Below are positions 11,201 to 34,682 of a stretch of DNA of 64,000 nucleotides, piece after piece; within the stretch, counting starts at the first letter, position 1; each line of letters starts with the position of its first letter. The notes below the pieces were generated by a model that ran no database searches, had not been told where the DNA came from, and was given only the letters and a program-made list of their open reading frames with translations. The stretch is from Eledone cirrhosa. Its lineage: Eukaryota. Location of the stretch: assembly GCA_964016885.1 (NCBI GenBank), contig OZ024749.1, forward strand, positions 6,572,001 through 6,636,000. Reading direction: 5' to 3'. Made by a program: the position numbers and the translations under genes.

Positions 11201-11315
11201 TAGTTGAAAAAAAATGAAAACGAAATTTCATTTCTCACTCTTAGTATGTATATATGTATATATGATAAACGTAGGCTAAACTGATGCGTGCATATATGTA
11301 TGTGTACCTGTATGC

Positions 11316-11360
<45 letters not shown>

Positions 11361-11802
11361 TGCTACTGTACGTCTGTATACATATATGTATGTACGTATA
11401 CATACATACTTACATTTAAGTAAGTGCCATACTAAGAGTGAGAAATGAAATTTCGTTTTCATTTTTTTTCAACTAATCGTTTTCGGTATGCCTGACCGAT
11501 TTAACTCACTCAATATGCAAATTAGGCTGCTCAGCCGTTAATTTTCATAAGGAAAGTATATACTTTCGAACGTTCAACTATCTGGCAGATGGGTAAACGG
11601 TGCTGATGATAGCTAACAAGCTTGAAACTAGTACATCGTTCCTGTGTCAGTGTTGAACAAAAAGGTGACGTGGTTGCCTTAACACCGTATGGCATAAATT
11701 CAGGCTGTTCGCTTTGTTGACAAACAAACGAACAAAGCGGCCGGCGTTATAATAAACGTAGGCTAAACTGATGCGTGCATATATGTATGTGTACCTGTAT
11801 GC

Positions 11803-11834
<32 letters not shown>

Positions 11835-11890
11835 GCATGCTACTGTACGTCTGTATACATATATGTATGTACGTATACATACATACTTAC

Positions 11891-11895
<5 letters not shown>
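11201..11895 (+). mobile_element. Retrozyme-like/mini-Penelope element, ~480-bp unit with terminal direct repeats and a short inverted flap
   Basis: 11265-11418 repeated at 11752-11895; 11201-11248 is the inverse of 11428-11475; one HHR inside; (TA)n flanks. Confidence 0.75.
11596..11640 (+). ncRNA. Minimal type I hammerhead ribozyme
   Basis: aacggtg-CTGATGA-t agct aaca agct t-GAAA-ctag-TA-catcgtt. Confidence 0.85.
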
Positions 11896-11947
<52 letters not shown>

Positions 11948-12149
11948 ATGAGTAGGCAGACCCAGAAAAACCTGGGACGACCTGCTAAACTCCGACCTCA
12001 CACACTTACACCTCTCCAAGACAATGTCACTGGACCGAGATCTTTGGCGGCAATCAGTAATAGAGAAGACCCGCCTTACCTAAATACAAAGTAAAACCTA
12101 CTACAGTCAGTAGGCATCTCTAACAAAATACACCCCTGTCCCACCACCC

Positions 12150-12477
12150 CCACCCCATCCACACCGCCCCTTTCAATGTAAAGTTATGTTGGTGCCACAA
12201 CATCCAGGCCGAAACAAATGAGATCGTGTAGTTGTCACGACAAAAAAACACACAGTCCACGCTGTAATGTGGCCATGTAGGCAACACGGTAAAAACCTCG
12301 CAGTCCCACACTGTAAATGTGGCTGGTGTTAGGAAGGGCATCCAGCTGTAGAAAACCTGCCAGACAGTCCTATGCGAGCAAGACAACCACTCTTGCCTCA
12401 AGTGGGAAAACTCCTGTCCAAACCCATGCAAGCGTGGAACATGGACGTTAAACGATGATGATGATGATGATGATGAC
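12150..12477 (+). mobile_element. SINE 3' body with RTE-like tail ending in (GAT)n
   Basis: Same sequence as 16558-16875 (minus), 18275-18975 and 53705-53985. Confidence 0.85.
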
Positions 12478-12479
12478 AC

Positions 12480-13245
12480 AATGCAGATCTTGGGTACACA
12501 AGAGATGTATTGGGATAGCAGGAAAACTAACAGGTAGGGAAAACTACATATGCATTAGATGTACAGGGAAATTTGACAGTAGAAGTCGCAGTAATAGACA
12601 CATTTTTCAAATGCAGGTAGGTTCTATAGATGCGGTTGATAGCTTCTGGTATCTAGGTGATCAGATTAGCATGGGAGGGGGTGTTCCGAAGGCCATAGTA
12701 TCTAGAATAAGGATGGGTTGAAAGAAGTTTACGGTTCCTCTGTTGACAAAGAAGGGTTTCTCCCTGCGTATGAAAGGCCAGTTATATGATGCCTGTGCGA
12801 GATGCACGATGCTGCATGGTAGTGTGACATGGGCAGCAACTACAGAGGATATGCGATGGCTGGAGAGAAATGAAGCAAGCATGCTCCATTGGATGTGCAA
12901 TGTCAATGTGCCTGAACAACCAAGCATGGATGTATTGAGAGAGAAACTGTGTATAAGAGGGATAAGTTGTAGTGTGCGGGAAAGACGACTGTGATGGTAT
13001 GGACATGTGATGTGCATGGAGGATGACCGCTGGGTAAAGAATTGCCAAGAAATCCCAGTAGAAGGAAGATGCAGTAGAGGAAGCCCACGAAAAAGATGGA
13101 TGGAGGTGGTAAGAGCAGAACTCAGATCACTGAAGCTCACGGAGGAGATGACGAAGGACCGTGACAAGTGGAGAGATGCTGTGCTGAATAGGACCCGTCG
13201 AACCCATGCAAGCAGGGAAAAGCGGACGTAAAATGATGCTGATGA
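12480..13245 (+). mobile_element. 5'-truncated RTE-clade LINE with frameshifts/stops
   Basis: CRSWVHKRCIGI..YICIRC, YLGDQIS, KGQLYDACAR..MLHGSVTW..ERNEASML, wYGHV, RGSPRKRWMEVV..DRDKWR; 3' tail aacccatgcaagcagggaaaagcggacgtaaaatgatg. Confidence 0.92.
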
Positions 13246-13317
13246 TATATATAATGTTTGTTATATATATATAATTATATATATATATATATATATAATG
13301 TTTGTTTTATATATATA

Positions 13318-13488
13318 TAATTGTTTCTACTTTAGGCACAAGGCCAGCAATTACCCAGTACATTACTGGTACTTTATTTTATGAAAGGCAAAGTTAACCT
13401 CGGCGGGATTTGAACTCAGATCATAAAGGGACGTAACTCTATGCTTCAAAGCCTGGTGTCCGACTCTCTACCGATACTGCCAATCCAC
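13318..13488 (-). mobile_element. Family A SINE
   Basis: Reverse complement of the 2017-2193 unit. Confidence 0.85.
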
Positions 13489-13619
13489 CTTGCTATTTGT
13501 ATATAGAAAATTATATATGTGCAAATTAAGTAATTCCGTCGGAAAAGTCCAGGAAAAAAGAGTGCTCTATGTAGGTAACAGAGCTTAATAGTTATGTAAT
13601 AAACAACATAAGGCAATTA

Positions 13620-13680
13620 TTTCATTTACCAGTGGTTTCTTAAAAGCAAAAAAATTTTGCTTTCAATCATCAGAATGAAA
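13620..13680 (-). ncRNA. Type I hammerhead ribozyme (mirror copy)
   Basis: Reverse complement of 13746-13806. Confidence 0.85.
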
Positions 13681-13745
13681 AAATTCCTGGTGTATTTATT
13701 GGCGTTGGATTTTAAAATCCAACAGCAATAAATACACCAGGATTT

Positions 13746-13806
13746 TTTCATTCTGATGATTGAAAGCAAAATTTTTTTGCTTTTAAGAAACCACTGGTAA
13801 ATGAAA
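13746..13806 (+). ncRNA. Type I hammerhead ribozyme
   Basis: tttcatt-CTGATGA-ttgaaagcaaaa/ttttgcttttaa-GAAA-ccactgg-TA-aatgaaa. Confidence 0.88.
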
Positions 13807-13921
13807 TAATTGCCTTATGTTGTTTATTACATAACTATAAAATCATATATACAGATATAAAAATTTATTTCTAAGATTTAATATTAAAGAATAAAAACTA
13901 ATGATAAAATAAATATATATT

Positions 13922-14366
13922 TTTAATGTGATGCAGTCGTAGTGGGGTTTTCTATGTTTCAAGAATTTCATGCAGATGTCGTTTCATGTGGTGGCCATTA
14001 AAACATAATTGAGAGGTATTTTTAAAAGTGAGGACTCCTGAGATTGTGTGCCCCTAATCTGTAGATATCACTTCTAACTGAAATAAAAGAGTGCTCTCTA
14101 CATGTTATATTGAATGTCTGGATATATTCCAGGCCAATATCCAATGTAAGTAATAAGATGTTCACTAAGCTTTCCCGTATCTTGCCGTGTGTCTTACAGG
14201 ACTGGCTTTGACACTTCCTCTTTTAGATATCGTGCATAACATCTTGATAGATGCAGTCAATGCTCTCTTACCTTCTCAAATATGTTTTAATGGCCACCAC
14301 ATGAAACGACATCTGCATGAAATTCTTGAAACATAGAAAACCCCACTACGACTGCATCACATTAAA
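13922..14366. repeat. ~96-bp inverted repeat pair (13922-14018 / 14269-14366) with ~250-bp spacer
   Basis: Direct comparison: about one mismatch and one indel. Confidence 0.9.
14200..14336 (+). CDS. Candidate terminal exon (phase 1), (R)LALTLPLLDIVHNILIDAVNALLPSQICFNGHHMKRHLHEILET*
   Basis: gtcttacag acceptor; phase compatible with exon 6771-6990; open to TAG at 14334-14336; may instead be element-derived. Confidence 0.33.
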
Positions 14367-15542
14367 TATTAAGGATTGGAGTAACCGTAAATCATCAGAG
14401 AATATTCTTTGTAGCAAAGAGTTATAGCCCTTTGGGGTCTGAGTTTGAATCCAACAGATGTTTGCTTTGCCTTTCATCCTTACAGAGGTAGATAAAATAA
14501 AGTTCCAGCAATGCAATGAGGTTGATTTGATCGACCTTTGCCTCCCCTAAAATTCTAGGCCTTCTGCCTAAATCAGAAATCATTAAATATCAACGTGTTT
14601 ACTCTAATAATACAAATGTTCACCATGATCTGTCCAACAGTAAAGATACTATAAACATTTAAATTAACAAACACATTTTTAGATATTTTGGGCTACAGAT
14701 ATTACAGGATATTCAGGGTGAAGAAAATATTCATTAAAAGTACAGAACAATACTTTGACAGCATCACATTAACAATTAAAATAATCTTTACGCTCCCTCA
14801 GCAAATGTTCACAATGGTCTGTTCCCTAGTAAAGACAGTATAAATATTTGAATAAACCAACCTCTTTTTAGATATTTTCCACTAAATCCTTACAGAATGT
14901 TAAGACTTACAACAACAACCACAGAAGTGGCAACACAAACAAAATCAACAACAAAAAAAAGAGAAAAAAAAAAAAAAACAATATGTAAAAATCTAAAAAA
15001 TGAACTATATCTTTTGAAAGATTCGCTAAAATATTCAGAATTTGAGCATAATTTTCAGATTCAAACGAGATTTTCCACGACAATCAGAAAGAAAAAAAAT
15101 TGACACCTTTTCGATTTACTACCATCTAACTGTACATATACCGATTCCACTTAATAGCCATGCTAGCTGCTGAGAAATATAGTAATGTAACAGCGGGAGA
15201 GAAAGAGGAGGTAATTTTTGGATAATGCTGACGTGAAAAATATCACTTAGCATTGAAAATACAGAAGAATAGGTAAGAGAAACTTACCAAATATTTAAAT
15301 TGCTGCAAGAATTATGATTTGCAAAAAGGTCTTTTACAAGCTGACTGTGTTAAAATAATGATGGTAAATTATTCCAGAGAAAAGATTTCGAAGAAATGTT
15401 CTTAACTAAAGCAATTTAACAATTTTTCTCCTGTATAAATAACAATATTCAAAATCTAATATTTATCTACCTATTCCTTTCTCTCTCTCTGTGTTTGTGT
15501 GTGTAGAAAGATATATATATAAATATATATATGTATATATAT

Positions 15543-15828
15543 ATTAGAAAGTGCGTTTTTTTTTACAAAATGAAAAATAACCGAGGTGTCCTGCACGAGC
15601 GAAAGTATAAAGAAAAAAAGATGAAATGGAAAATGCAAATGCGGTCTTATTTTTTTTATAATATATATATTTATTTGGTTCCTTTACCGGTTTAAACCAC
15701 AGACCCTCCATCTCAATTCCACTTTTGAAAAGCAGAAGAAATGCGAAACCGGTAAAAGAACCAAATAAATATATATATATATTTAAAAATAAGACTCCAG
15801 TTGCATTTTCGATTTCATCTTTCTTTCT
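15543..15828. mobile_element. Asymmetric palindromic HHR-variant element (family of 8996-9355)
   Basis: Same arms; cttttgaaaagcagaagaaatgcgaaaccggtaaa in the right arm. Confidence 0.75.
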
Positions 15829-16173
15829 GTATCATCATCATCATCATCACCGTTTTACGTCCGTTCTTCCACGCTAGCATGGGTTAGACGGGTTGTCCTG
15901 TTGTGTGCAGTGTCTGGTCGGCTGACCATGCCTTGCTCATACAGGAACTGATCTGGCTTGATTTCTACAGCTGGATGCCCTTCCTAACACCAACCTCATT
16001 TACAGTGAGTGCTGGGTGCTTTTTCGTGGCGCCTACACGTCCACTTTACAGTGTGGGCTGGGTGCTTTTTTGCCGTGGCACCTCCATGACCACCTTGCGG
16101 TGGGGGGTGTGGGGGCATATTGTTTATATGCTTCAGCATGTATATATATATATTCAGCATGTATATATATATA

Positions 16174-16433
16174 TTCCAGTATCAACAATACTGGAATTGA
16201 ACTATCAAGACCTTAGCGGCATGTCATATATCAAATCATATATTTTGTCTGATGAGGACGTACTGAAAAAACAACACAGTACCTTTGAAATATATATTCT
16301 GATTATGAGAATATTTTTAATTTGTTAATATTTTGAATAATATTAAAAACTCCAGGAAAACACTTGTTGAGTGCTTCTAATCTATTGTAAAATTGTATTC
16401 ATTGAGTAATCAACGAACCATATTAATCTTTGG

Positions 16434-16436
<3 letters not shown>
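16174..16436 (+). mobile_element. HHR-bearing Penelope-like terminal fragment (family of 45328-45760); HHR 3' stem I deleted
   Basis: CTGATGA at 16249, GAAA at 16287; tail matches 45615-45760. Confidence 0.65.
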
Positions 16437-16476
<40 letters not shown>

Positions 16477-16554
16477 GATTCAGGAACCTAACAGCTGTGC
16501 TCTGGCTGTTTCGACAGCTAGACCATGTTTGGTCTTTGTTATATATATATATAT

Positions 16555-16586
<32 letters not shown>

Positions 16587-16901
16587 CCATCATCGTTTAA
16601 CGTCCATCTTCCACGCTTGCATGGGTTCAGATTGGAGTTTTCCCACTTGAGGCTAGAGTGGTTGTCTCGCTCGCATAGGACTGTCTGGCGGGTTTTCTAC
16701 GGCTGGGTGCCCTTCCTAACACCAACCACGTTTACAGTGTGGGGCTGGGAGGTTTTTACCGTGTTACCTACACGGCCACATTACAGCGGGGACTGTGTGT
16801 TCTTTTTGTTGTGACACCTACACGACCTCATTTGTTTTGGGCTGGATGTTGTGGTACCAACATAACTTTACATTGAAATATATATATATATATATAATAT
16901 A

Positions 16902-16941
<40 letters not shown>

Positions 16942-17153
16942 ATTAAGTTAAGAATGTACATCCACATATGTATACTGAAATACTAGTATTCATATGCATA
17001 CTAGTATTTCAGTATACATATGTGGATGTACATTCTTAACTTAATTGTTTAAGCGTCAGTCATACAAAAGTGAGTTACAAACGAAACAAAATTTAATTTC
17101 GTTTCGTTATTTGTTTTTATCGTCTCCGCTGAACCGGTACGTACTCACGCTCT

Positions 17154-17200
17154 ATGCAAATTAGTCTGCCCACTACTAATTTTCATAGAAAAAGCATATA
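17154..17200 (+). promoter_or_regulatory. Putative snRNA-type promoter module (octamer, PSE-like, TATA-like)
   Basis: ATGCAAAT..taattttcatagaaaaagcatata; same order at 11515-11562; octamer also at 34426-34433. Confidence 0.35.
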
Positions 17201-17246
17201 ACGATATGTGCTTTTACGATTCTCTAGAAAGGCCGGAAGATAGGTA

Positions 17247-17291
17247 AATATTGCTGATGAGATGTAACAACATCGAAACTAGTCCAATATT
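17247..17291 (+). ncRNA. Canonical minimal type I hammerhead ribozyme (GUC cleavage triplet)
   Basis: aatattg-CTGATGA-gatgt aaca acatc-GAAA-ctag-TC-caatatt; perfect stems I and II. Confidence 0.93.
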
Positions 17292-18274
17292 CCTGTCTGG
17301 CTTTCTGGAGAATAGAGGAAAGGTGTTTCCTCGAAAACCAGTATGACTCTAAAAACCGTTTTGTCTGTGTGTTTACATACAGAATAGCTGGACACTCACA
17401 GTAAAGTGTCCAGTGAAAAACTCGGTACATCTACATATGTACACGTGTGTGTATTCATATGCATACTAGTATTTCAGTATACATATGTGGATGTACATTC
17501 TTAACTTAATTGTTTAAGCGTCAGTCATACAAAAGTGAGTTACAAACGAAACGAAATTTAATTTCGTTTCGTTATTTGTTTTTATATAATATATATATAT
17601 ATATAATATATATATATATAATATATATATATATATATAATATATATATATATATATAATATATATTTTTAACCCGTCTGTTGAGAACTCTAATTCGATA
17701 TGTGATATTTTGTATTTTTACAATAATATACAATACTGAATTCATTCGCCTAATATAGGGGTTCCCTCCCTTGCTAGACCCCACGTGGATTTAGTAACGG
17801 GTTCCCTTGTATTATTGAACTAAACGCCTGTTGAAAAAGTGGTTTCCTTGTTCATCATCTTACCAGAAGCTGGATATTTTTTATGTAAGCTGACGGTAAC
17901 TGATTTAGGAGCCGCAGAAACCCAAATGCAGGAATTTACCATCTTTCAGGGGTCCGGGTAAATTTTCATTCATATATATTTTTATTTGTCTGACCCGAAT
18001 TTTCTTGGTCGTGTTTTCGGCTGTGCGAATGATTGTTTGAGCATCGTCTCTGTGTTGGTATTAAACGTTAGTTATAGCTCTTGTTTATCCAAACTATTGA
18101 GCACTTTGCCACACATTTCGAAGATTGTGTTTCGTTATTTCATGGGCCGAGGTTCCGATTCTCGATAATTTATTTGTTTTTATATAATATATATTATATA
18201 TATTATATATATTAAATATATAAAATATATATATATATATATATATAATATATATAATATATATATATAATATA

Positions 18275-18975
18275 ATGTGAAGTTATGTTGGTACCACAAC
18301 ATCCAGTCCAAAACAAATGAGGTCGTGTAGGTGTCACGACAAAAAACACACAGTCCACGCTGTAATGTGGCCGTGTAGGTAACACGGTAAAAACCGCCCA
18401 GTACACACTGTAAACGTGGTTGGTGTTAGGAAGGGCATCCAGCCGTAGAAAACCCTCCAGACGTGTAGGTGTCACGACAATAAAACACAGTCCACGCTGT
18501 AATGTGGCCGTGTAGGTAACACGGGAAAAACCTCCCAGACCCACACTGTAAACGTGGTTGGTGTTAGGAAGGGCATCCAGCCGTAGAAAACCCGCCAGAC
18601 GTGTAGGTGTCACGACAATAAAAGACAGTCCACGCTGTAATGTGGCCGTGTAAGTAACACGGGAAAAACCTCCCAGTCCACACTGTAAACATGGTTGGTG
18701 ATAGGAAGGGCATCCAGCCGTAGAAAACCCGCCAGATGTGTAGGTGTCACGACAATAAAACACAGTCCACGCTGTAATGTGGCCGTGTAAGTAACACAGG
18801 AAAAACCTCCCAGTCCACACTGTAAACGTGGTTGGTGTTAGGAAGGGCATCCAGCCGTAAAAAACCCGCCAGACAGTCCTGAGCAAGACAACCAATCTTG
18901 CCTCAAGTGGGACAATTGCCGTCCAGACCCATGCTAGCGTGGAAAATGGACGTTAAACGATGATGATGATGATGA
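18275..18975 (+). mobile_element. SINE body with internal ~138-bp unit amplified about 4 times
   Basis: gtgtaggtgtcacgac recurs at ~18325, 18464, 18601 and 18738; explains ORF 18212-18895. Confidence 0.88.
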
Positions 18976-19281
18976 ATATATATAATATATATATATATAT
19001 AATTGTTTCTACTATTGGCACAAGGCCAGAAATTACCCAGTTCATTACTGGTACTTTATTTTATCGACCCCGTAAGGATGAAAGGCAAAATGAAAACACA
19101 CACGCACATAAAACAAACAACCAACCAGTAACATGTAAATAAACAAATAGATCAACAAATATAAACATACACAGACACCCGGATGTAACACATGCGCAAA
19201 CTAAGCACACAACACACACAAAAACAAGATGGCGTAGGACAGAACAAAGGAGAGGCACACAAACAAAGAAAAGAATCCCCA

Positions 19282-19324
19282 GTCATTGAAGAGGTCACAT
19301 AATGTGTGACGAAAGAACTTTGAC
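19282..19324 (+). ncRNA. Hammerhead ribozyme variant (U3)
   Basis: gtca-TTGAAGA-ggtcacataatgtgtgac-GAAA-gaac-TT-tgac. Confidence 0.6.
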
Positions 19325-19507
19325 AATATATAAACAATCATCCGGTTGTGGAACCAACCAACCAACCGGAAATTTATAAATTTATAAATTTATTATAATA
19401 AATTGAAGTGAAAGCAACTGGTGCATGTGTTTCTTATTGGTAACATGACCCTCCCAAAGTATAACTATATATATATATATTTTTTTTTTCTTATTTTTGT
19501 ACGTATA

Positions 19508-19690
19508 TAATTGTTTCTACTTTTTGGCACAAGGCCAGCAATTACTCAGTACATTACTGGTACTTTATTTTATCGACCCTGTAAGGATGAAAGGCAAAGT
19601 TAACCTCGGCGGGATTTGAACTCAGACTGTAAAGGGAAGTAACTATGCTAGATAGCATGGCGTCCAACCCTCTACCGATACTGCCAATTC
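19508..19690 (-). mobile_element. Family A SINE
   Basis: Full reverse-complement copy. Confidence 0.85.
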
Positions 19691-20320
19691 ACCGAAGTCA
19701 TATTAGTGCATGAAAAAACGTCACTGTTTTGATGCCTCTTGTTTTATGGAAGTGTCAAATTTTGGCCTTGAAATCTAGGGTAATGTCTTTGTTCCAATGT
19801 ATCCATGTATGAATATATATGTATATATGTATATTTATGAAAATAACAGATTAAAGTTTAAGCAAAGAATCGCTGCTTTCACCCTTAACGGGATCTTCTG
19901 AAACTAAAGAAATCAATATGTGAATGCAGAAGTAAATATTTCAAAAAAAGTTGCAACCGAAGGAAAACAGGAAGATGATACTTTGACGTTCCCTGGCAAT
20001 GAATGGAAAAAAGCGAAGATAATATGTTGTTATGTGGAGCGATGAGAGCAAATACACGCAAAAACAAATCCACGTTTATGGTATAGATGGAGTCATAGAC
20101 TAATATTCTATTTGCTCTAGGGTTCTTATATATTTGATATATATTTATCCTTATCGAGCCCTCTTTGGATTTTAGTCTTCACATTTATTATTATTACTAT
20201 TATTATTATTTTTATTATTATTATTATTACTATATATATGTATATATAAATTTGTTTTGCAAGGTTTTTGATATGAAATCATGTGTTGAAACAAATATTT
20301 TTATACTTGGGGAGGGTCAT

Positions 20321-20820
20321 ATTGTTGTAATACCATTGCCAGAAATAACAACAGAACACACTCACTGTTTCGTTGGTTTTTGCTTCTGCATCTTTTATAT
20401 CTCCATAGTTAATTCATTTGGCCATCAATGTTTGTCATTGACTGACCAATGAATGATAAAAAATACAGATATAAATACACATACATATAGTCTAACAAAA
20501 TTCTTTCGTTGCACATCTGCGACATCATCAATGGTACTATTATCATTTTTCTTCCTATTGTGTTGTATTTACGCCATTTTTATTTTATAAAGAAATTTTA
20601 TTTTATAAAATAAAAATGGCGTGCAACAAAAGAACTTTGTTAGACTATATATATATATTTATATCTGTATTTTTGACCCTTGGTCATCAATATTGATGGC
20701 CAAATGAATTAACTGTGGAGATATAAAAGATGCAGAAGCAAAAACCAACCAAACAGTGAGTGTGTTCTGTTGTTATTTCTGGCAATAGTATTACAACAAT
20801 ATGACCCTCCCCAAGTATAA
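20321..20820. mobile_element. ~500-bp imperfect palindromic element with a decayed HHR in the left arm (minus strand)
   Basis: 20321-20447 inverse of 20680-20820; 20460-20515 inverse of 20621-20675; central hairpin 20571-20622; end motif atgaccctccc.aagtataa also at ~19445. Confidence 0.75.
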
Positions 20821-20907
20821 CAATATGTATATATATATATATATACACATATAAATACATATGTATATATATATATATGTATGTATATATGTATGTATAT
20901 ATGATAT

Positions 20908-21470
20908 CCTGTCTCATGGTCGGGTCGTTGGCGTCTAAACTGGCAACCCCACCAATGTTTCTTGGTGAGGAGGGTGACTTAGGACATCCTGCAGGACTAA
21001 AAAAAAAACCTGTCAAAGGGCAAAAGAGCTCTTAAGAGTCAATGGCCATCCAAAATCACCAGGAGAGATGACCCCTTAGCCTTTGTCAAGGCAGAATTCT
21101 AGGAGAAGGAAAACTCTGATATAACACCTGCAACCCTGATGGTATCCAATGATGTTGACTTGTTCTTCTTTTTGGTAAATATCATCTTGGTTAAGAGAGT
21201 GGGACTGGCTTTGTGCAGTGCCTTTGCTCACTATAAAAGCTTCACGGCACAGGCATTGCTTTATATCTGGAGATCTCTCTGCACTTGTCATCACATGGTA
21301 CCATGGGCCCAGCACTATGTGTCAATAATTGTCACAAGTGTAGTGTTTGTACCAGAGTTTTCAAGCCGCTGGCTGGACTAAAAAGTCACACTCGTTCAGC
21401 GCATCGGTAGGGGTTCTCCTACATGGATATAAAGTAGTGGCCGTACTCGAAAACGAGTTGGCAGCCACCA
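20908..21470 (+). mobile_element. Second copy of the RTE-derived bipartite element
   Basis: Collinear with and highly similar to 5165-5732. Confidence 0.75.
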
Positions 21471-21519
21471 TATATGTTATATATATATATATATATATAA
21501 AAACATATATATACAAATC

Positions 21520-21700
21520 ATTATCATCATCATCATTTTACGTCTGCTTCTCCCTGCTTACAAGGGTGGGACAAGTCCTATTCAGCACAGCATCTCTCCA
21601 CTTGTCACAGTCCTTTGTCATCTCCTCTGTGAGCTTCAGCGATCTGAGGTCTGCTCGCACCTCCTCCACCCATGTACTTTGTGGTCTTCCTCTACTGTGT
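21520..21700 (-). mobile_element. RTE LINE extreme 3' fragment
   Basis: RGRPQSTWVEEVRADLRSLKLTEEMTKDCDKWRDAVLN; matches 13075-13235. Confidence 0.88.
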
Positions 21701-21759
21701 CTATACATGTACAAATATCGACACACACACATATATGTATGTATACACACATATATTCA

Positions 21760-22025
21760 TGGAGGGAGGTAGCCAAGTGGTGAGGCTGGTCATAATGTAG
21801 TGGGTTCGATTATTGGTTTGTGTGTTGTGTTCTTCAGCAAAACACTTCATTTCACGTTGCTCCAGTATACTCAGCTGTAAATGAGTACCAGCAATAGCTG
21901 GAGGTTTAACCCTGCGATGGACTTGCGTCCTGTCCAGGGGGAAGTCTTGTACTCTCAGTCACTTCACACCATGAAACCGGGATAAGCACCGGCCAAATGA
22001 GCCTTCTGGCTTAAGACAGACTTTA
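21760..22025 (+). mobile_element. tRNA/CORE-like SINE with a different tail
   Basis: gggttcgatt, cagcaaaacacttcatttcacgttgctccagtatactcagctgtaaatgag. Confidence 0.7.
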
Positions 22026-23997: not shown

Positions 23998-24055
<58 letters not shown>

Positions 24056-24181
24056 CACAGGCATGACTCTGTGTTTAAGGAGTTAGTTTTGTACCCGAGG
24101 TAATTCAAGTTCACTGCTACTGCATGGCACATTGGGTAAGTATCTACTAATGCAACCTTTGACTGACCAATATAGTATGCA

Positions 24182-24388
24182 TTGGCAGTATTGGTAAAGG
24201 GTCGGATGCCATGCTTTGCAGCATAGAGTTACTGCCCTTTATGATCTGAGTTCAAATCCCGCTGAGGTTAACTTTGCCTTTCATCCTTACGGGGTCGATA
24301 AAATAAAGTACCAGTCACGCACTGGGGTCGATCTCATCAACTTCCCCCTCCCCCCAAATTGCTGGCCTTGTGCCTATATAAGAAACTA
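24182..24388 (+). mobile_element. Family A SINE
   Basis: A/B boxes plus core and tail. Confidence 0.85.
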
Positions 24389-24878
24389 ATCTAGTATGCA
24401 CCACTTCTCCTACCTTCCCCTCTCTCTCCAAACACCTACCAGTTCATTACACCCCACCCCACATCCACATCCCCTAGATCTACCTCCCCAAGCACCTTCC
24501 ACACCCCAGCCCCCAGTCCTCACTTTAAATATAGGTATCGTGACAAAAAGCATCCAGTCCACAGTGTACGGTGGTTCTTTTGTTGCCGTGACATAAAGTG
24601 CTCAAACCACTCTGAAAAGTGTTTGTGTAGGTGTCACAAGAAAAGGCACCCAGCCCTCACTGTAAAGTGGTCATGTACTTGACATGACAACAAGCACCCA
24701 ATACACACTGAAAATGTGGTTGGCATTAGGAAGGGCATCCAGACAAGGAAACCAAGATAAAATCAGTTCAGTATGAGCAAGAGATAATCATGTGATCTGG
24801 CTTGTGTCACAAAGGGACAACTCGTACAGCCCATTCTAGCATGGAAAAATGGACATCAAACTGTGATTATATATATAT

Positions 24879-25215
24879 GGAGGCACATGGCTTAGTGGTT
24901 AGAGCATTGACCTTGCAATCGAAAGGTTGTGAGTTCAATTCTCAGACCGGGTGATGTGTTGGTTCCTTGAGCAAGACACTTTATTTCACATTGTTCCAGT
25001 TTACTCAGCTGTAGAAATGAGATGATAGGGACTGGGGTGCCTATCATTCCACTGCAAAGTGGTCGTGTAGGTGCCACGGCAAAAAAGCACCCAACACTCA
25101 CTGTAAATGAGGTTGGTGTTAGGAAGGGCATCCAGCTGTAGAAATCAAGCCAGAATCAGTTCCCGTCCCACCCTTGCAAGCAGGGAGAAAGCGGACGTAA
25201 ATTGAAATGATGATG
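24879..25215 (+). mobile_element. Family B SINE, full length
   Basis: ggaggcacatggcttagtggttagagc head through cggacgtaaattgaaatgatgatg tail. Confidence 0.9.
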
Positions 25216-25520
25216 AAAAAATGATGATATATATCACAGAAAAAAGAGAATCAGTGTTGCGACAAAAGGCATTTATTGGACATATTACAATTGTTTCTTG
25301 GGCGACCAGCTCGAGGCACGATAGATATGGTGATCAAACCTGACTCTGAAATTGCACGGTCCTCGGATACATCTCGATTCTACGAAGCAGATTTTCCTAT
25401 TATATATATATATATATATTTAGGGATTGTAATGTTCAGTTACTGTAGGTGCAGCAAAGTGAGCACTTGATGCATAGTTTCCAGTAAGTGTAGAGGTGTA
25501 GAATTAAGTAGTGTGTAATA

Positions 25521-25862
25521 ATAATTGTTTCTACTTTTGGCACAAGGCCAGCAATTATCCCAGTGCATTACTGGTACTTTATTTTATCGACCCCATCAGG
25601 ACGAAAGGCAAAGTTAACCTCGGCGAGATTAGAACTCAGATCGTAAAGGCCCATAACGCCATACTGCAAAGCATGGCATCCAACCCTCTAGTGTGTTATG
25701 ATAATTGTTTCTACTTCTGGCACAAGTACCATTACTGGTACTTTATTTTATCGACCCCGAAAGGATGAAAGGCAAAGTTAACCTTGGCAGGATTTGAACT
25801 CAGATCGTAAAGGGACGTAACTATACTGGAAAGCATATGTGACCCTCTACCTATACTGCCAA
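25521..25862 (-). mobile_element. Two tandem family A SINE copies
   Basis: Repeated ataattgtttctactt..ctggtactttattttatcgaccc..aaaggcaaagttaacct. Confidence 0.85.
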
Positions 25863-25876
25863 TAACGGATGATCTG

Positions 25877-26104
25877 TTATGTCTTCATTACGTTTATTGA
25901 GTAGTGACATGTGTTCCATGATTGATCAGCTCAAGGTTGATCTGGACTGACTCTGGAATCAAAAGCTCGTCAGTTCAGCTACCACAACAGAAATCTGATG
26001 AACTTTTGATTCCAGAGTTGGGCCAGATCAATACAGATCAAACCTTCAGCTGATCAATAGCAAAACATGCGTCACTACTCAATAAACGCAACGAGGACAT
26101 AATA
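25877..26104. repeat. Diverged inverted repeat pair with decayed HHR-like cores
   Basis: gtttattgagtagtgac/gtcactactcaataaac and ctctggaatcaaaag/cttttgattccagag. Confidence 0.7.
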
Positions 26105-26780
26105 AATGGCCCTTTAAGCAAGGAAAAGCAGACATAAAATGATGATGATATATATATATATGCATGTGTGTGGGTTTGTGTGTTGTACAAAATGGTAGAG
26201 TTTATATAAAGCATTAGGAAACATGTGGTTAGGCTTGTTCTGTAAAAGCCAGTACAATATAAGCTAGACATGTAGGAGTGAAAATTAAAGTAAATAAAGT
26301 AAAAAAAAAAAAGGTTAAATGTTTACCTAATATTCCTTGATATTTTGAGGATCTGTTATTTTGCTAATTACTGTTAGTACCAATCAAAAAATAGGAGGGT
26401 GTACAGTTGATTTCATTCACTGTGACCTCCACAATATGGCCTTGTCTACCTCAGAATATATTGACCACTGAGTTTCTTTTTTCTTAAAAAATTAAAGTGT
26501 AATTTGAGGGGATTGTGGCTGTTATTTCTAGCAGATCGAGTAACAGAGTACTTTAGTATTACTGTAAAAATAATTTACAGTGTAGGTACTGGCTTAATAT
26601 CTAGGTTATTAGAGTTTCATTCCTTCCCACTGGGGCATTGTGCCCTTGAACAAGACACTCAGTTTCACATTACCCCTATTTACTCAGCCTGAAAACATAA
26701 ATCAGTTATGTTTGTATTTAAAAGGGCCAGTGTTACCGCACACTGTATCATGTTGAATATTCTTGAACAAACCACGCCAA

Positions 26781-28770
26781 CCCTTTAGTATTTAAACCTA
26801 TATTTACTATTGTATTTTCACAGTAAACAATTTATTCCACATAATGTAGAATCTACGAGATTTCGATATTATTAATTTTGAGAACAATAACTTAACATCA
26901 GTATGAGCAGCTGGTTACAGGTGCTTTGAACCATACTGATGTTAAGGTATTGTTCTCAAAACAAATAATACCAAAATCATATACATTCAATATTATGTGT
27001 GATAATAATGTGAGGTAAAGCCTTTACCATGAAAATACAATAGTATATATAGAGCAATGTAAATGTTATGTGAGATATTATGTGAGGTAAAGCCTTTACC
27101 AAGAAAATACAATAGTATATATAGAGCAATGTAAATGTTATGTGTGATAATAATGTGAGGTAAAGCCTTTACCATGAAAATACAATAGTATATATAGAGT
27201 AATGTAAATGTTATGTGAGATATTATATGAGATATTATGTGAGGTAAAGCCTTTACCAAGAAAATACAATAGTATGTATAGAGCAATGTAAATGTTATGT
27301 GAGATATTATATGAGATATTATGTGAGGTATAGCCTTTACCAAGAAAATACAATAGTATATATAGAGCAATGTAAATGTTATGTGTGATAATAATGTGAG
27401 GTAAAGCCTTTACCATGAAAATACAATAGTATATATATAGAGCAATGTAAATGTTATGTGAGATATTATGTGAGGTATTATATGAGGTAAAGTCTTTACT
27501 GTGAAAATACAATAGTATATGGACAGTAATGTAAATGTTATAGGAGATAATTATGTGAGGTAAGGCCTTTACCATGAAAATGCAATAGGAAATATAGAGT
27601 AATGTAAATGTTATGTGAGATATTATGTGAGGTAAAGCCTTTACTGTGAACATACAATAGTATATATAGAGTAATGTAAATGTTATGTGAGATATTATGT
27701 GAGGTAAAGCCTTTACTGTGAACATACAATAGTATATATAGAGTAATGTAAATGTTATGTGAGATATTATGTGAAGTAAAGCCTTTACTGTGAACATACA
27801 ATAGTATATATAGAGTAATGTAAATGTTATGTGAGATATTATGTAAGGTAAAGCCTTTACTGTGAACATACAATAGTATATATAGAGTAATGTAAATGTT
27901 ATGTGAGATATTATGTGAAGTAAAGCCTTTACTGTGAACATACAATAGTATATATAGAGTAATGTAAATGTTATGTGAGATATTATGTAAGGTAAAGCCT
28001 TTACTGTGAACATACAATAGTATATATAGAGTAATGTAAATGTTATGTGAGATATTATGTGAAGTAAAGCCTTTACTGTGAACATACAATAGTATATATA
28101 GAGTAATGTAAATGTTATGTGAGATATTATGTGAGGTAAAGCCTTTACTGTGAAAATACAATTGTATATATAGAGTAATGTAAATGTTATGAGATATTAT
28201 GTGAGGTAAAGCCTTTACTGTGAAAATACAATAGTATATATAGAGTAATGTAAATGTTATGTGAGATATTATGTGAGGTAAAGCCTTTACTGTGAAAATA
28301 CAATAGTATATATAGAGTAATGTAAATGTTATGTGAGATATTATGTGAAGTAAAGCCTTTACTGTGAACATACGATAGTATATATAGAGTAATGTAAATG
28401 TTATGTGAGATATTATGTGAGGTAAAGCCTTTACTGTGAAAATACAATAGTATATATAGAGTAATGTAAATGTTATGTGAGATATTATCAGAGGTAAAGC
28501 CTTTACTGTGAAAATACAATAGTATATATAGAGTAATGTAAATGTTATGCAAGATATTATCAGAGGTAAAGCCTTTACTGTGAAAATACAATAGTATATA
28601 TAGAGTAATGTAAATGTTATGTGAGATATTATTTGAGTTAAAGCCTTTACTGTGAAAATACAATAGTATATATAGAGTAATGTAAATGTTATGTGAGATA
28701 TTATGTGAGGTAAAGCCTTTACTGTGAAAATACAAGATTATATATATAGAGTAATGTAAATACTAAAGGG
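26781..28770. mobile_element. piggyBac-type MITE expanded by a 72-bp satellite (~26990-28760, ~24 units)
   Basis: Ends ccctttagtattta / taaatactaaaggg followed by TTAA; unit gtaaagcctttactgtgaaaatacaatagtatatatagagtaatgtaaatgttatgtgagatattatgtgag. Confidence 0.8.
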
Positions 28771-29204
28771 TTAAGATGACACATTTCCGTGGAATACTCA
28801 GCCACATACATTGTAAATTATGATGGACCTGGCTGTCAATAGATCAAACAGCTGTAAGATTTGTTGTCAGAGTCCAACACAAGTCCAACACAAATATAGA
28901 AGCCAAAGATAAAAGAAACTTAAACCCCTGAAGTCTTAAACAAGAAACTAGACACCTTGTTGACATACAAAGTCATAAATCAAATGTTTATGATACAATA
29001 TATCTGACCTCACATAGATTGTCTTGAGCCCACAAATCACCTGTGTGTGTGCTTGTGTGTGTACATGTCTGTGTGTATGTGTGTGTGTGTGTGTACATGT
29101 AGTGTGTCAGTATTTAGGATTTGTGTATTTAATATAGATTTAGCAGGGGGGTGTTACATGTTCAGATAAATGTTATTCACCTACTATAATCTGTATAATA
29201 CATA

Positions 29205-29207
29205 TAA

Positions 29208-29243
<36 letters not shown>

Positions 29244-29270
29244 ATATATATATATATATATAAACATATA

Positions 29271-29335
<65 letters not shown>

Positions 29336-29510
29336 TCATCATCTTCGTTTAACGGCCATTTTCCACGCTAGCATGGGTTATACATATATATATATATACA
29401 CACACACACATATATACTATATATATATAGATAAATCTTATTCACCTTCTATAATCTGTATAATACATATATGTATATATATAAATATGTATATATATAT
29501 GTATATAAAC

Positions 29511-29541
<31 letters not shown>

Positions 29542-29573
29542 AACATATATATATATGTATATATATATATATA

Positions 29574-29668
<95 letters not shown>

Positions 29669-29993
29669 TCATCATCATCTTCGTTTAACGTCCATTTTCC
29701 ACGTTAGCATGGGTTATACATATATATATACACACACACACACACGCATATATATATATATGTGTGTGAGTGAGTGTGTGTGTACATATATATATACATA
29801 CATATATATATAGAGAGAGAGAAGAGAGACAGGGTGAGAGGATCAGAGGTGTATATATGAAAACATTTATAAATATATATACTTTGATATACAATAAACA
29901 TATGGGGAGCCTGGCTATATATCTTTATATGCTTGAACAGTGTCTTAGGGACTCTGCAAATGATATATACATATATATATATGTGTGTGTGTT

Positions 29994-30040
<47 letters not shown>

Positions 30041-30197
30041 ATATGTATACAAATATACGCACACACACGCACACATATATATATATATGAAAACGCATAT
30101 ATATATATACATATACAGACACATATATATATATATATATTCTTATATATTCATATGTATATATATATGAATATATATATACATGTGTCTGTATATG

Positions 30198-30255
<58 letters not shown>

Positions 30256-30372
30256 CACACATATATACATGAATATATACACAAACACATACATATCTAT
30301 AACTTATAAAACGTTTACATATATATGTATATATATATATATATATATACATATATATATTTATACATATAC

Positions 30373-30407
<35 letters not shown>

Positions 30408-30877
30408 TGGCTTAGTGGTTAGAGCATTGGCCTTGCAATCGAAAGGTTGTGAGTTCAATTCTCAGACCGGGTGATGTGTTGTTTCCTTGAGCAAGACACT
30501 TTATTTCACATTGCTCCAGTTTACTCAGCTGTAGAAATGAGGTGATAGGGAATGGGGTCCATATCATTCCACTGCAAAGTGGTCGTGGAGGTGCCACGGC
30601 AAAAAAGCACCCAGCACTCACTGTAAATGAGGTTGGTGTTAGGAAGGGCATCCAGCTGTAGAAATCAAGCCAGAATTAGTTCTCGTCCCACCCTTGCAAG
30701 CAGGGAAAAGCGGACGTAAAATGATGATGATGATGATATACATATATATATTTATACATATACATATATATATATATATGTATATATATATACATATATA
30801 CATATATATATTTATACATATATATATATATATGTATATATATATACATATATACATATATATATTTATACATATAC

Positions 30878-30908
<31 letters not shown>

Positions 30909-31049
30909 CATATATACATATATATATTTATACATATACATATATATATATGTATACATATATACATATATACATATATATATTCATACATATATATATA
31001 TATATGTATATATATATACATATATACATATATATATTTATACATATAC

Positions 31050-31080
<31 letters not shown>

Positions 31081-31140
31081 ATATATACATATATATATTT
31101 ATACATATACATATATATATATATATATTTATACATATAC

Positions 31141-31182
<42 letters not shown>

Positions 31183-31234
31183 GTATACATATACCTCTAT
31201 ATATATATATATATATTTATACATATACCTATAT

Positions 31235-31272
<38 letters not shown>

Positions 31273-31298
31273 ACATATATATATATATATATATATGT

Positions 31299-31378
<80 letters not shown>

Positions 31379-31471
31379 ATACATATATATATATATATGT
31401 ATACATATATATATATATGTATACATATATATATATATATAGTTATATATATATATATATATATACATATA

Positions 31472-31546
<75 letters not shown>

Positions 31547-31620
31547 TATATATATATATCTGATATATATATATATATATATGTGATATATATATATATG
31601 TATACATATATATATATATA

Positions 31621-31701
<81 letters not shown>

Positions 31702-31969
31702 ATATATATATATATGATATATATATATATATATCTGACTTGATACTGATAACTAGGGAGGTCATGTCCAACCTTGTAGATATTCCTATCAATTCATTGG
31801 TTTTTGTTTTTGTTTTTGATTTTTCTTCTTTACTTGTTCACAAGGAAAGAGAATAACAGATAGTTGAACATATTAATGGCTACACACACACACACACACA
31901 CATGTGTGTGCGCGTACATGCATATCTCCAAATGAGTGTGTTTGACCAAATATATATATATATATGTAC

Positions 31970-32001
<32 letters not shown>

Positions 32002-32300
32002 ATATGTGTATGCACAAATGAGTATGTTTGTCCATATAAATATATATATGTACATATATATATATATATATGTGTGTGTGTACATGCACACATGCATGTG
32101 AACATGCATGTGTGTACACTCACACATGCATGTGAACATGCGTGTGTTTCTCTACATGCATGTATATGTGTGTACATGTATATGCATGTATATGATTGAG
32201 TGTATTTGTCCATATATATATATATGTCTGTGTGTGTATAAACACACATCAGCATAGCAAAACACAAGTATGATGATGATATATATATATATATATATAA
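29205..32300. repeat. Extended (TA)n/(CA)n microsatellite field with short RTE-tail inserts (29332, 29666) and a family B SINE (30405-30737)
   Basis: Direct inspection. Confidence 0.9.
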
Positions 32301-33112
32301 AGAAAAAGAGATGAAATCGAAAATGCAACTGGAGTCTTATTTTTTTATAAAATATATATATTTATTTGGTTCCTTTACCGGTTTCACATTTCTTCTGCTT
32401 TTCAAAAGGTGAGTTGAGATGGAGGGTCTGTGGTTTTTCTCACATCTGGTTGGTCTCTGAATGTTACTTGTTTTATATGGAAAAAGTGGCTCGAAATGCC
32501 AGGTTTTTCGAGAAGTAATTTGATTGGTTTGTCAATAATTATAATAAATTTCGCGCCAGTTCGCGTTACAATAGTTCTTCAAATAAGAGAGGGGGGGGGG
32601 GGGGGGTTCACAGGTTGTTTTTTCATATATGAGTGTTTGAATTTCTTTTTACTTGAAAGCCAACCAAAAAAAAGCCTTCGTGAGCCTCCTTTTTTCAAGT
32701 AAAAAGAAATTCAAACACTCATATATGAAAAAACAACCTGTGACAACCCCCCCCCCCCCCCTCTCTTATTTGAAGAACTATTGTAACGCGAACTGGCGCG
32801 AAATTAATTATAATTATTGACAAACCAATCAAATTACTTCTCGAAAAACCTGGCATTTCGAGCCACTTTTTCCATATAAAACAAGTAACATTCAGAGACC
32901 AACCAGATGTGAGAAAAACCACAGACCCTCCATCTCAACTCACCTTTTGAAAAGCAGAAGAACTGCGAAACCGGTAAAGGAACCAAATAAATATAAATAT
33001 TTTATAAAAAAATAAGACTCCAGTTGCATTTTCGATTTCATCTCTTTTTCTTTATACTTTCACTCATGTAGGACACCTCGGTTATTTTTCATTTTGTAAA
33101 AAAAAACCTCAC

Positions 33113-33120
<8 letters not shown>
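32298..33120. mobile_element. Large palindromic element, ~360-bp arms, mirror HHR variants
   Basis: 32298-32659 inverse of 32694-33053, short spacer; explains mirror ORFs 32430-32702 and 32719-32922; (TA)n flanks. Confidence 0.88.
32943..32980 (+). ncRNA. Hammerhead variant with U3-A8 core (mirror at 32372-32409 on minus)
   Basis: cctt-TTGAAAA-gcag aagaa ctgc-GAAA-ccgg-TA-aagg. Confidence 0.7.
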
Positions 33121-33144
<24 letters not shown>

Positions 33145-33229
33145 GCTAATAAGTTAAACATGACTTGGGCCAATACAGGCTGAAACCTATCAAAGTTATA
33201 TAGTTAGTCATACAAATATATATATATAT

Positions 33230-33585
33230 GGAGGCACATGGCTTACTGGTTAGAACATTGGCCTTGCAATCGAAAGGTTGTGAGTTCAATTCTCAGATCA
33301 GGTGATGTGTTGTTTCCTTGAGCAAGACACTTTATTTCACATTGATCCAGTTTACTCAGCTGTAGAAATGAGATGATAGGGACTTCAGTGGAATGATAGG
33401 ACTGGGGTACCTATCATTCCACTGCAAAGTAGTCGTGGAGATGCCACGGCAAAAAAGGCACCGAGCACTCCCTCTAAATGAGGTTGGTGTTAGGAAGGGC
33501 ATCCAGCTGTAGAAATCAAGCCAGAATCAGTTCCCGTCCCACCCTTGCAAGCAAGGAAAAGCAGACGTAAAATGAAATGATGATG
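33230..33585 (+). mobile_element. Family B SINE
   Basis: Full head-core-tail. Confidence 0.9.
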
Positions 33586-33892
33586 ATATATATCTATCTA
33601 TCTAGGGCGGGTAAAATTCCCGAGATCCATGGACGAGTTCTCTCCAGCGGTCTCTGTCCCTCATTATCGCTGCCATGTCCTGTGTCTCCAGTAGTTAAAC
33701 CATGAATATTACAACCATGTGTTTTGTTGTTCTATCACAAGGAACGGTACTTGCTGGCGTCCATGGCATACACTGCTGCCATCTACATAGTACTTCCAGG
33801 ACATCTTACCTTGGCTTGAACACTCAGAATTTTTCACCTTTTTGACAGCTTAGTAAGGTTGTTTCCTTTTAAAAGAATCAATTATTATTATT

Positions 33893-34312
33893 TGGCTTTA
33901 TTGGTAGAGGGTCGGACGCCATGCTTTGCAGCATAGAGTTACGGCTCTTTATGATCTGAGCTCAAATCCTGCCGAGGTTAACTTTGCCTTTCATCCTTAT
34001 GGGGTCGATAAAATAAAGTACCAGTCACGCACTGGGGTCGATCTAATCGACTTTCCCCTCCCCCCCAAATTACTGGCTTTGTGCCTATATAAGAAACCAT
34101 TATTATTATTATTATTATTACTGGCGGCAGATCGGCAGTATCGGTAGAAAGTCGGACGCCATGGTTTGCAGCATAGAGTTACAGCCCTTTATGATATAAG
34201 TTCAAAACTGCCGATGTTAACTTTGCCTTTCATCCTTATGGGGACAATAAAATAAAGTACCAGTAATACACTGGCGTAATTGCTGACCTTGTGTCAAAAG
34301 TAGAAGCATTAT
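33893..34312 (+). mobile_element. Two tandem family A SINEs
   Basis: Two head-core-tail units separated by (ATT)n. Confidence 0.85.
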
Positions 34313-34324
34313 CATTATTCACTA

Positions 34325-34682
34325 TAACCCATATTTACATTTATGTATCTGCTATGCTAGAGCGAGAAATCAAGTTTCAATTATGTTTTTAATTTTCGGC
34401 AAGGCCAGCTGTAAAATGGCTCGGTATGCAAATGAGGCTAATCAGCCAATCTATACAATAGAAAACAATTTATATTTTCAACAGTTCAATCAAGTAGCAT
34501 AGAGGTATACAGTCCTGATGAAGGGCAATGACCCAGAAACATGTTGATTGTTCCTCGGTGCTACTGTTGAACAAATGGATGATGATAGCCATCAAGGCAC
34601 AGCATAGCTTATTTGGGCCGTTTGCTTGCAAACAGATTGAACATCATTATCCTTATTTGATCTAACCCATACTTACATTTAT
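34325..34682 (+). mobile_element. Retrozyme-like element, 338-bp unit with 20-bp terminal direct repeats
   Basis: taacccata(t/c)ttacatttat at 34325 and 34663; similar to the 11201-11895 element. Confidence 0.65.
34509..34551 (+). ncRNA. Minimal type I hammerhead ribozyme
   Basis: acagtc-CTGATGA-agggcaatgaccca-GAAA-catg-TT-gattgt. Confidence 0.78.

What the first reader, a model, noticed from the sequence alone, without database searches (positions are those of the whole stretch)
11201..34682. Terminally redundant 340-480 bp HHR mini-elements carrying a conserved octamer (plus PSE-like/TATA-like) module
Seen: three divergent relatives (11201-11895, 16941-17585, 34325-34682; units ~480, 465 and 338 bp). 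Each has one HHR, no ORF, and terminal direct repeats of different length and boundaries. All have ATGCAAAT 88-100 bp upstream of the HHR core (11515, 17154, 34426), and two follow it with taattttcata..aaag.atata. Established: the octamer is the snRNA distal element, PSE plus TATA defines U6-type Pol III promoters, and non-LTR retrozymes form circular RNAs. Inference: a circular-RNA retroelement that carries its own snRNA-type promoter and restores it upstream through terminal redundancy. I do not know of this combination being described, but could not search. The octamer-PSE spacing is much shorter than in vertebrate snRNA genes.
Basis: partly seen in the sequence, partly recalled or inferred. 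Interest (0 to 1): 0.85.

Follow-up and report, generated by a model that had tools for sequence, protein, structure and literature searches.

The report
Retrozymes with hybrid snRNA promoter
These three short repeats are members of a very abundant family of non-coding jumping elements with a predicted self-cutting RNA, and each unit carries a block copied from the host's own small-nuclear-RNA promoters that likely lets the element switch itself on, an arrangement reported before for a newt repeat.

Summary
Confirmed. The three elements are solo copies of non-LTR retrozymes: 338-495 bp non-coding units, each with a type I hammerhead, in tens of thousands of copies and in arrays. ATGCAAAT lies 76-103 nt before 29,440 of 40,253 hammerhead cores. 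The same 12-nt block sits at about -77 in five host Pol III promoters (U6, U6atac, RNase MRP) and in none of 16 Pol II snRNA promoters, so the short spacing is the host's own. The U6/Pol III label is only half supported: the rest of the module (YCAG core, TATA spacing) follows the host Pol II genes, and T-runs would stop Pol III. The 'PSE-like' taattttcata is the pairing arm of an octamer hairpin. The 'terminal repeats' are partial tandems: 3' ends fall at two fixed sites, 5' ends vary, and 29 of 34 head-to-head insertions have one end at each site, a Penelope-type footprint. One RNA-seq run holds the unit; start site and circles are untested. Hammerhead repeat plus snRNA promoter is in print for newt satellite 2. 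The scan noted this system before on other pieces of this genome.

The parts
11201..11248 (-). E1 short inverted arm; outer end is the distal fixed 3' end (unit position ~335), joined to (TA)n
   Evidence: reverse complement of 11428-11475
11261..11895 (+). E1 main arm, 1.3 units; 3' end at the proximal fixed site (unit position 278), joined to (TA)n
   Evidence: 100% identical cores in arrays elsewhere
11461..11469 (+). E1 T8 run just before the distal 3' end site
11514..11566 (+). E1 promoter-like module: TATGCAAATTAG, TCAGC core at +16, pairing arm TAATTTTCATA, TATA-like word in a hairpin at +42
11572..11658 (+). E1 type I hammerhead with extended stem I; core 11603; predicted cut after 11633 (GUA); U-U mismatch at base of stem II
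16941..16993 (-). E2 short inverted arm; outer end at the proximal fixed 3' site (unit position ~228)
16987..17585 (+). E2 main arm, about 1.3 units of 465 bp; 3' end at the T5 run (unit position 302), joined to (TA)n
17153..17216 (+). E2 promoter-like module: TATGCAAATTAG, pairing arm, CATATA in a hairpin; weakest match to the host Pol II core
17232..17310 (+). E2 type I hammerhead; core 17254; predicted cut after 17284 (GUC)
34307..34682 (+). E3, older copy, 1.1 units of 338 bp; 3' end CATACTTACATTTA joined to (TA)n, same end motif as E1
34425..34479 (+). E3 promoter-like module: TATGCAAATGAG, AATCAGC, TATA-like hairpin; best match to the host Pol II profile
34484..34572 (+). E3 type I hammerhead; core 34515; predicted cut after 34545 (GUU), imperfect stem II

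Best explanation
These are non-LTR retrozymes, non-coding hammerhead repeats present in tens of thousands of copies, whose unit likely carries its own snRNA-type promoter and which are likely pasted into (TA)n tracts by a Penelope-like reverse transcriptase. Shown: the unit anatomy, copy number, arrays, the match of the module to host snRNA promoters, the two fixed 3' ends and the variable 5' ends. Inferred: in an array the module of one unit starts transcription about 72-77 nt after the octamer, 42-59 nt before the cut site, more likely by Pol II (about 50%) than Pol III (about 30%); the transcript reads through following units; hammerheads cut it into unit-length RNAs that contain the promoter sequence near their 3' end and can be circularised; the Penelope-type enzyme starts reverse transcription at two fixed internal sites 45-74 nt apart, one per target strand, and runs more than once round the unit, which restores promoter and ribozyme in DNA. 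The window's three single-ribozyme copies would be dead ends; arrays would be the sources.
For: Copies: E1 cores 100% identical in ~495-bp arrays, E2 99-100% in 465/466-bp arrays, E3 79-88%; an array of 31 cores on C1. 29,440 of 40,253 cores have the octamer 76-103 nt upstream (reversed controls 0 and 1; chance per such window 0.13%). TATGCAAAT is invariant in 5 of 5 families, the longest invariant block of the alignment; in 29 E3 copies it is conserved at 0.954 against 0.85-0.87 for flanks and 0.97 for the catalytic core. Host: 12-mer with 0-1 mismatch at -77 to -79 in three distinct U6 promoters, U6atac and RNase MRP, and at least 3 mismatches in all 16 Pol II promoters (MRP and U12 were fetched after the rule was set). 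YCAG-to-TATA 23-29 in Pol II genes, 24-27 in elements; octamer-to-TATA 46-48 in Pol III genes, 40-43 in elements. The octamer stays fixed while its pairing arm changes sequence and, in one family, side. Ends: 77 of 80 E2 and 34 of 39 E1 3' ends at two sites; 29 of 34 two-armed insertions have one end at each site, none has two alike; the junctions printed mostly run into (TA)n. Two RT start sites and a tail are described for a Penelope-like element (PMC11167929 passages). Predicted circles are strongly self-paired for E1 and E2 (z -8.9, -10.3). An RNA-seq run holds contigs over all 30 bins of the E2 unit, promoter included.
Against: No start site, polymerase, cleavage or circle was observed. 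The Pol II profile ranks the octamer+16 register 1 of 676 and 1 of 680 (E3), 2 and 18 of 900 (F5), 4 of 986 and 34 of 900 (E1 types) but only 90 of 932 (E2) and 114 of 900 (F4); element scores (-16 to +9) are below most real promoters (-3 to +33). The host distal element is missing. Octamer and TATA-like word both lie in predicted RNA hairpins, and stem I extends 15 nt upstream of the predicted start. The octamer 9-mer ranks only 26 of 292 in E3 copies and is AT-rich. The 79 E2 5' ends show no pile-up at the predicted start or cut site. No autonomous partner found: two PLE families lack the octamer in the terminal regions examined and 27 PLE-holding loci gave no pLTR homology. Tails are longer than the usual 30-40 bp. 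RNA contigs could come from passive read-through of thousands of copies; the run is of the same coded study as the best DNA holders.
Confidence: 0.7

Rival explanations
1. The module is a U6-type Pol III promoter. Pol III makes a ~330-370 nt RNA from just before the hammerhead to the T-run; unit-length templates come from leaky termination or from passive Pol II read-through.
For: The 12-nt block is specific to host Pol III promoters (5 of 5 against 0 of 16); each unit has a T5-T8 run and the distal 3' end site lies at or just after it; schistosome hammerhead repeats use Pol III (PMC6765202 passage).
Against: Octamer-to-TATA is 3-8 nt shorter than in host Pol III genes; the sequence after the octamer does not fit the Pol III profile (p 0.04-0.27, weak profile of 4 sequences); arms cross the T-run up to six times; in insects polymerase choice depends on the 3' half of the PSE (PMC1761439 passages), which here is Pol II-like.
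Confidence: 0.3
2. The module is not a promoter: it is kept as RNA hairpins or as a protein-binding site (POU factor or PLE protein), and the repeats are transcribed passively from host genes.
For: Octamer and TATA-like word sit in hairpins in all five families; distal element absent; E2, a young abundant family, fits the Pol II core poorly.
Against: Structure-only selection would let both arms covary, whereas the octamer arm is invariant; the match to host Pol III promoters is 11-12 of 12 nt and the core and TATA fall at host spacings.
Confidence: 0.2
3. Arrays arise at the DNA level (unequal crossing-over of a solo pLTR-like unit) or from linear multimeric RNA; no circle is involved.
For: Proposed as a model in bioRxiv 10.64898/2026.07.22.740005; hammerhead cleavage was dispensable for a PLE in vitro; tandem DNA and circles give the same junction, so sequence cannot separate them.
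Against: Both arms of one insertion can be multi-unit with fixed 3' ends, which points to arrays made at insertion; circles are shown for coral, mussel and axolotl retrozymes (PMC7229834).
Confidence: 0.25

Closest known systems
Metazoan non-LTR retrozymes (Cervera and de la Pena 2020, PMC7229834; Li, Clavereau and Pollet 2026, bioRxiv 10.64898/2026.07.22.740005)
   Same: Short non-coding tandem units with one type I hammerhead, monomers to multimers, minimal palindromic stem III, U-U at the base of stem II as in one axolotl family, self-paired predicted circle, co-occurrence with PLEs.
   Different: Units up to 495 bp; a defined internal promoter-like module, which the parts read of both papers do not analyse; no cephalopod among their species in the parts read; paired fixed 3' ends mapped here. 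Supplements of both could not be seen.
Newt satellite 2 (Coats, Zhang and Epstein 1994; Cremisi et al. 1992)
   Same: Hammerhead repeat with an internal snRNA-type promoter, transcribed by Pol II (as cited in PMC2220036, and PMC6765202). That its promoter consists of octamer and PSE is recalled, not read.
   Different: Here the octamer is the host's proximal Pol III block fused to a Pol II-type core and TATA; distant phylum; promoter activity untested.
Penelope-like elements: pLTR, tail, inverted arms (PMC8557442, PMC11167929 passages)
   Same: Partial tandems, 5' truncation, inverted 5' copy, two alternative 3' ends, (TA)n targets.
   Different: No ORF; distance between the two ends 45-74 nt rather than 30-40; no homology found to the pLTRs tested.
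Schistosome Sm-alpha hammerhead repeats (PMC6765202 passage)
   Same: Internal promoter upstream of the hammerhead, so that only tandems propagate.
   Different: Described as SINE-like with Pol III transcription; no snRNA-type block mentioned in the passage read.

Membership tests
Non-LTR retrozyme | Type I hammerhead in each unit | tested here: met
Non-LTR retrozyme | Short AT-rich tandem units, monomers to multimers | tested here: met
   338-495 bp; arrays to 31 cores
Non-LTR retrozyme | No protein | tested here: met
   longest ATG frames 45-102 aa in copies and dimers; these were not searched against families
Non-LTR retrozyme | Self-cleavage | not testable with these tools
   core intact; compensatory A-U to U-A change in stem II among contigs
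Non-LTR retrozyme | Circular RNA in cells | not testable with these tools
   only contigs of one RNA run, presence shown
PLE-mobilised element | Partial tandem, variable 5' ends, inverted arm, (TA)n target | tested here: met
PLE-mobilised element | Two alternative 3' ends (tail of 30-40 bp) | tested here: inconclusive
   two ends present, but 45-74 nt apart
PLE-mobilised element | Homology to the pLTR of an autonomous PLE | tested here: not met
   27 PLE-holding loci, chiefly one family, gave hits only to neighbouring retrozyme copies; other families not examined
Host U6-type Pol III promoter | TATGCAAATKAG block | tested here: met
Host U6-type Pol III promoter | TATA 46-48 nt after the octamer | tested here: not met
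   40-43 nt in 5 families
Host Pol II snRNA promoter | YCAGY core with TATA 23-29 nt later | tested here: inconclusive
   spacing met in 5 of 5; core good in E1, E3, F4, partial in F5, poor in E2
Host snRNA promoters (both classes) | Distal TTACCTCCCTT-like element near -260 | tested here: not met
   best matches 2-4 mismatches in E1-E3
Host snRNA promoters (both classes) | SNAPc-dependent transcription from a defined start | not testable with these tools
   no raw reads or chromatin data

The most novel reading that the evidence does not exclude
Cephalopod-type retrozymes have built a chimeric snRNA promoter, the host's Pol III-specific octamer block fused to a Pol II-type core and TATA spacing, that drives read-through Pol II transcription of their own arrays; circles from these are copied by a Penelope RT primed at two fixed sites, one per target strand. 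With the newt case, internal snRNA promoters would be a general way in which animal retrozymes are expressed.
Probability: 0.35. Interest if true: 0.7.

Novelty: new variant of a known kind. Interest (0 to 1): 0.52.

Why it matters
Animal retrozymes are highly expressed, but how they are transcribed and mobilised is mostly assumed. Here both steps get concrete tests: a promoter-like module with three mutable parts and a predicted start, and two mapped RT start sites with a strict one-of-each rule per insertion. The module is also a natural chimera for asking what decides Pol II versus Pol III at snRNA promoters, in a host whose two promoter classes are laid out here.

Tried and rejected
Rfam scan: swamped by TA-repeat miRNA hits; only a weak HH9 match shown. 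The repeat finder over the window: swamped by simple repeats. No RNA holder was listed on record; X6 was shown to be RNA only by laying it on a spliced gene. X4 and X5 (other organisms) hold E2-like contigs at low depth, X5 one unit-length contig that goes back 465 nt; neither shows RNA or circularity. An apparent pile-up of 5' ends at the cut site was an artefact of a two-unit reference and vanished with a longer one. No excess of A-to-G changes among 18 distinct units of one array (2 of 21 variant sites). Pfam found one weak RT hit among 7 ORFs; the PLE calls rest on motifs that I recall. Partner search: a Neptune/Poseidon-like family and a young family have minimal hammerheads and no octamer near them; a resemblance of 3' end motifs is too short to count. 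Dropped before the promoter counts: 3 of 7 U6 upstream regions (one split by an insertion, two without promoter), one near-duplicate U6 and one U2, and 7 of 8 U6atac hits taken as probable pseudogenes. Searches for prior description listed no paper on cephalopod retrozymes or their promoters; the library lacks most subscription papers and the two newt papers were not read. The supplement of PMC7229834 could not be read, so whether mussel, coral or axolotl units carry the octamer is open.
Full report
Observation. The three elements are as described. ATGCAAAT stands at 11515, 17154 and 34426, 88-100 nt before hammerhead cores at 11603, 17254 and 34515. Each core has stems I and II, a minimal palindromic stem III and a GUH triplet, inside a long stem I that folds better than shuffles. 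Periods are about 480, 465 and 338 bp and no ATG frame exceeds 77 codons in the window copies. The genome is a 3.0 Gb animal assembly; its repeats look octopod to me, which is recalled, not tested.

Family. E1 cores are 100% identical to arrays on three chromosomes (40 of 780 candidates scored), E2 99-100% (40 of 1,476), E3 79-88% (40 of 2,338). A pattern for E1/E2-type cores matches 40,253 places; 29,440 have the exact octamer 76-103 nt upstream; reversed controls give 1 and 0. Copies are not independent, so families are the fair unit. In 80 evenly spaced 10-kb stretches a strict filter gave 14 hammerhead-like sites, 8 of retrozyme type, 7 of these with the octamer or a one-letter variant; they add two families (F4, F5). 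Across five families TATGCAAAT is the longest invariant block.

Host promoters. Three distinct U6 promoters, the best U6atac gene and RNase MRP carry TATGCAAATKAG (0-1 mismatch) at -77 to -79 and TATA at about -30; none of 16 U1, U2, U4, U5, U12 promoters does (dropped rows are listed under Tried and rejected). The Pol II genes have YCAGY at -55 to -58 and a TATA-like word 23-29 nt later. The elements combine both: the Pol III block, then TCAG or a variant at +16 and a TATA-like word 24-27 nt after it; octamer-to-TATA is 40-43 nt against 46-48 in Pol III genes. The +16 register was first seen by eye; a scan of all positions ranks it first in both E3 copies, high in F5 and E1, and poorly in E2 and F4. 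The host distal element is absent. All three spacings put a start 72-77 nt after the octamer, 42-59 nt before the cut. In insects the 3' half of the PSE sets the polymerase (PMC1761439, passages); with T5-T8 runs in every unit this tips me to Pol II, but the Pol III-specific block keeps the question open.

The 'PSE-like' word. TAATTTTCATA is a near reverse complement of the octamer block and pairs with it; the TATA-like word lies in a hairpin in all five families. This is the main rival. Against a structure-only reading, the octamer arm never changes while its partner does, and in F4 the partner lies on the other side. In 29 E3 copies octamer and TATA region are conserved at 0.954, flanks at 0.85-0.87, non-CpG mean 0.90.

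Ends. The terminal repeats are partial tandems. In 54 E2 and 26 E1 stretches, 77 of 80 and 34 of 39 3' ends fall at two sites per family (a few counted twice from overlapping loci); 79 E2 5' ends spread over the whole unit; 23 of 26 and 6 of 8 head-to-head insertions have one end at each site, and the other five have a broken alignment. In E3, 18 of 30 loci end at the proximal site and 10 at the distal one. Window E1 and E2 are such two-armed insertions with a short inverted arm. Partial tandems, inverted arms, a tail at one end and (TA)n targets are PLE hallmarks (PMC8557442, passages), and two RT start sites explain the tail in vitro (PMC11167929, passages). PLEs are abundant here, but no partner was identified. 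The distal end lies 34-40 nt before the octamer, so an arm regains the promoter only if it copies almost a full unit, and arms of up to six units cross the start, the cut site and the T-run repeatedly: the template was multimeric or circular.

RNA. No run was on record as RNA, but X6 covers the exons of EF1-alpha with GT-AG joints and not its introns, and holds E2-type contigs over 30 of 30 bins, including the promoter region. This shows presence only; passive read-through would look the same.

Known and new. The elements fit non-LTR retrozymes (PMC7229834, passages and parts 3-4 of 6; bioRxiv 10.64898/2026.07.22.740005, parts 1-3 of 5), except for the features that need a bench. A hammerhead repeat with an snRNA promoter read by Pol II is in print for newt satellite 2 (seen only as cited). 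PMC7936874 (passages) added nothing. Searches listed nothing on cephalopod retrozymes; supplements that I could not see may bear on this. The scan noted the same system on other pieces of this genome; I took from those notes the 2026 preprint, the word 'dyad' and the editing idea, and tested each. What is new is the lineage, the chimeric promoter measured against the host's two classes, and the one-of-each end rule. Verdict: real, new variant of a known kind, interest 0.52.

Noticed in passing
window 10589, 16249, 45431/45557, 54329: A second family with a minimal hammerhead-like core (CTGATGA..GAAA TATGTA TAATAAA), often as an inverted pair, without the octamer; looks like a non-autonomous PLE derivative (also L057, L259).
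   Followed up: partly
host snRNA genes, L091-L140, L181-L212, L334, L335: Two promoter classes: Pol II genes with YCAGY at -55 to -58 and a TATA-like box near -30; Pol III genes with the octamer block at -77 and TATA at -30; many share a distal TTACCTCCCTT-like element near -260. A TATA-like box in Pol II snRNA genes and a proximal octamer are unlike vertebrates (recalled).
   Followed up: partly
L245:6240-9900 (G000:C1 120.006-120.010 Mb): Young PLE with a 725-codon open frame, inverted pLTR arms and a variant hammerhead core; copies 89-100% identical; its end motif resembles the E1/E3 proximal end.
   Followed up: partly
L136:1-613: An E2-family array lies about 900 bp upstream of a U1 gene in a U1 tandem cluster.
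   Followed up: no
window 47683-47850: Palindromic element with CTGAAGATTGC..GAAAGT on both arms, repeated elsewhere (L176, L178, L253); passes a loose hammerhead filter but is probably not a ribozyme.
   Followed up: no
window 52026-53362 and 54679-60452: A 72-bp minisatellite in two opposite blocks, then long CA/CCA-rich simple-repeat tracts.
   Followed up: no
run X6 contig over window 17164-17324: The RNA contig that spans the cut site carries GUU instead of GUC and a compensatory change in stem II.
   Followed up: no
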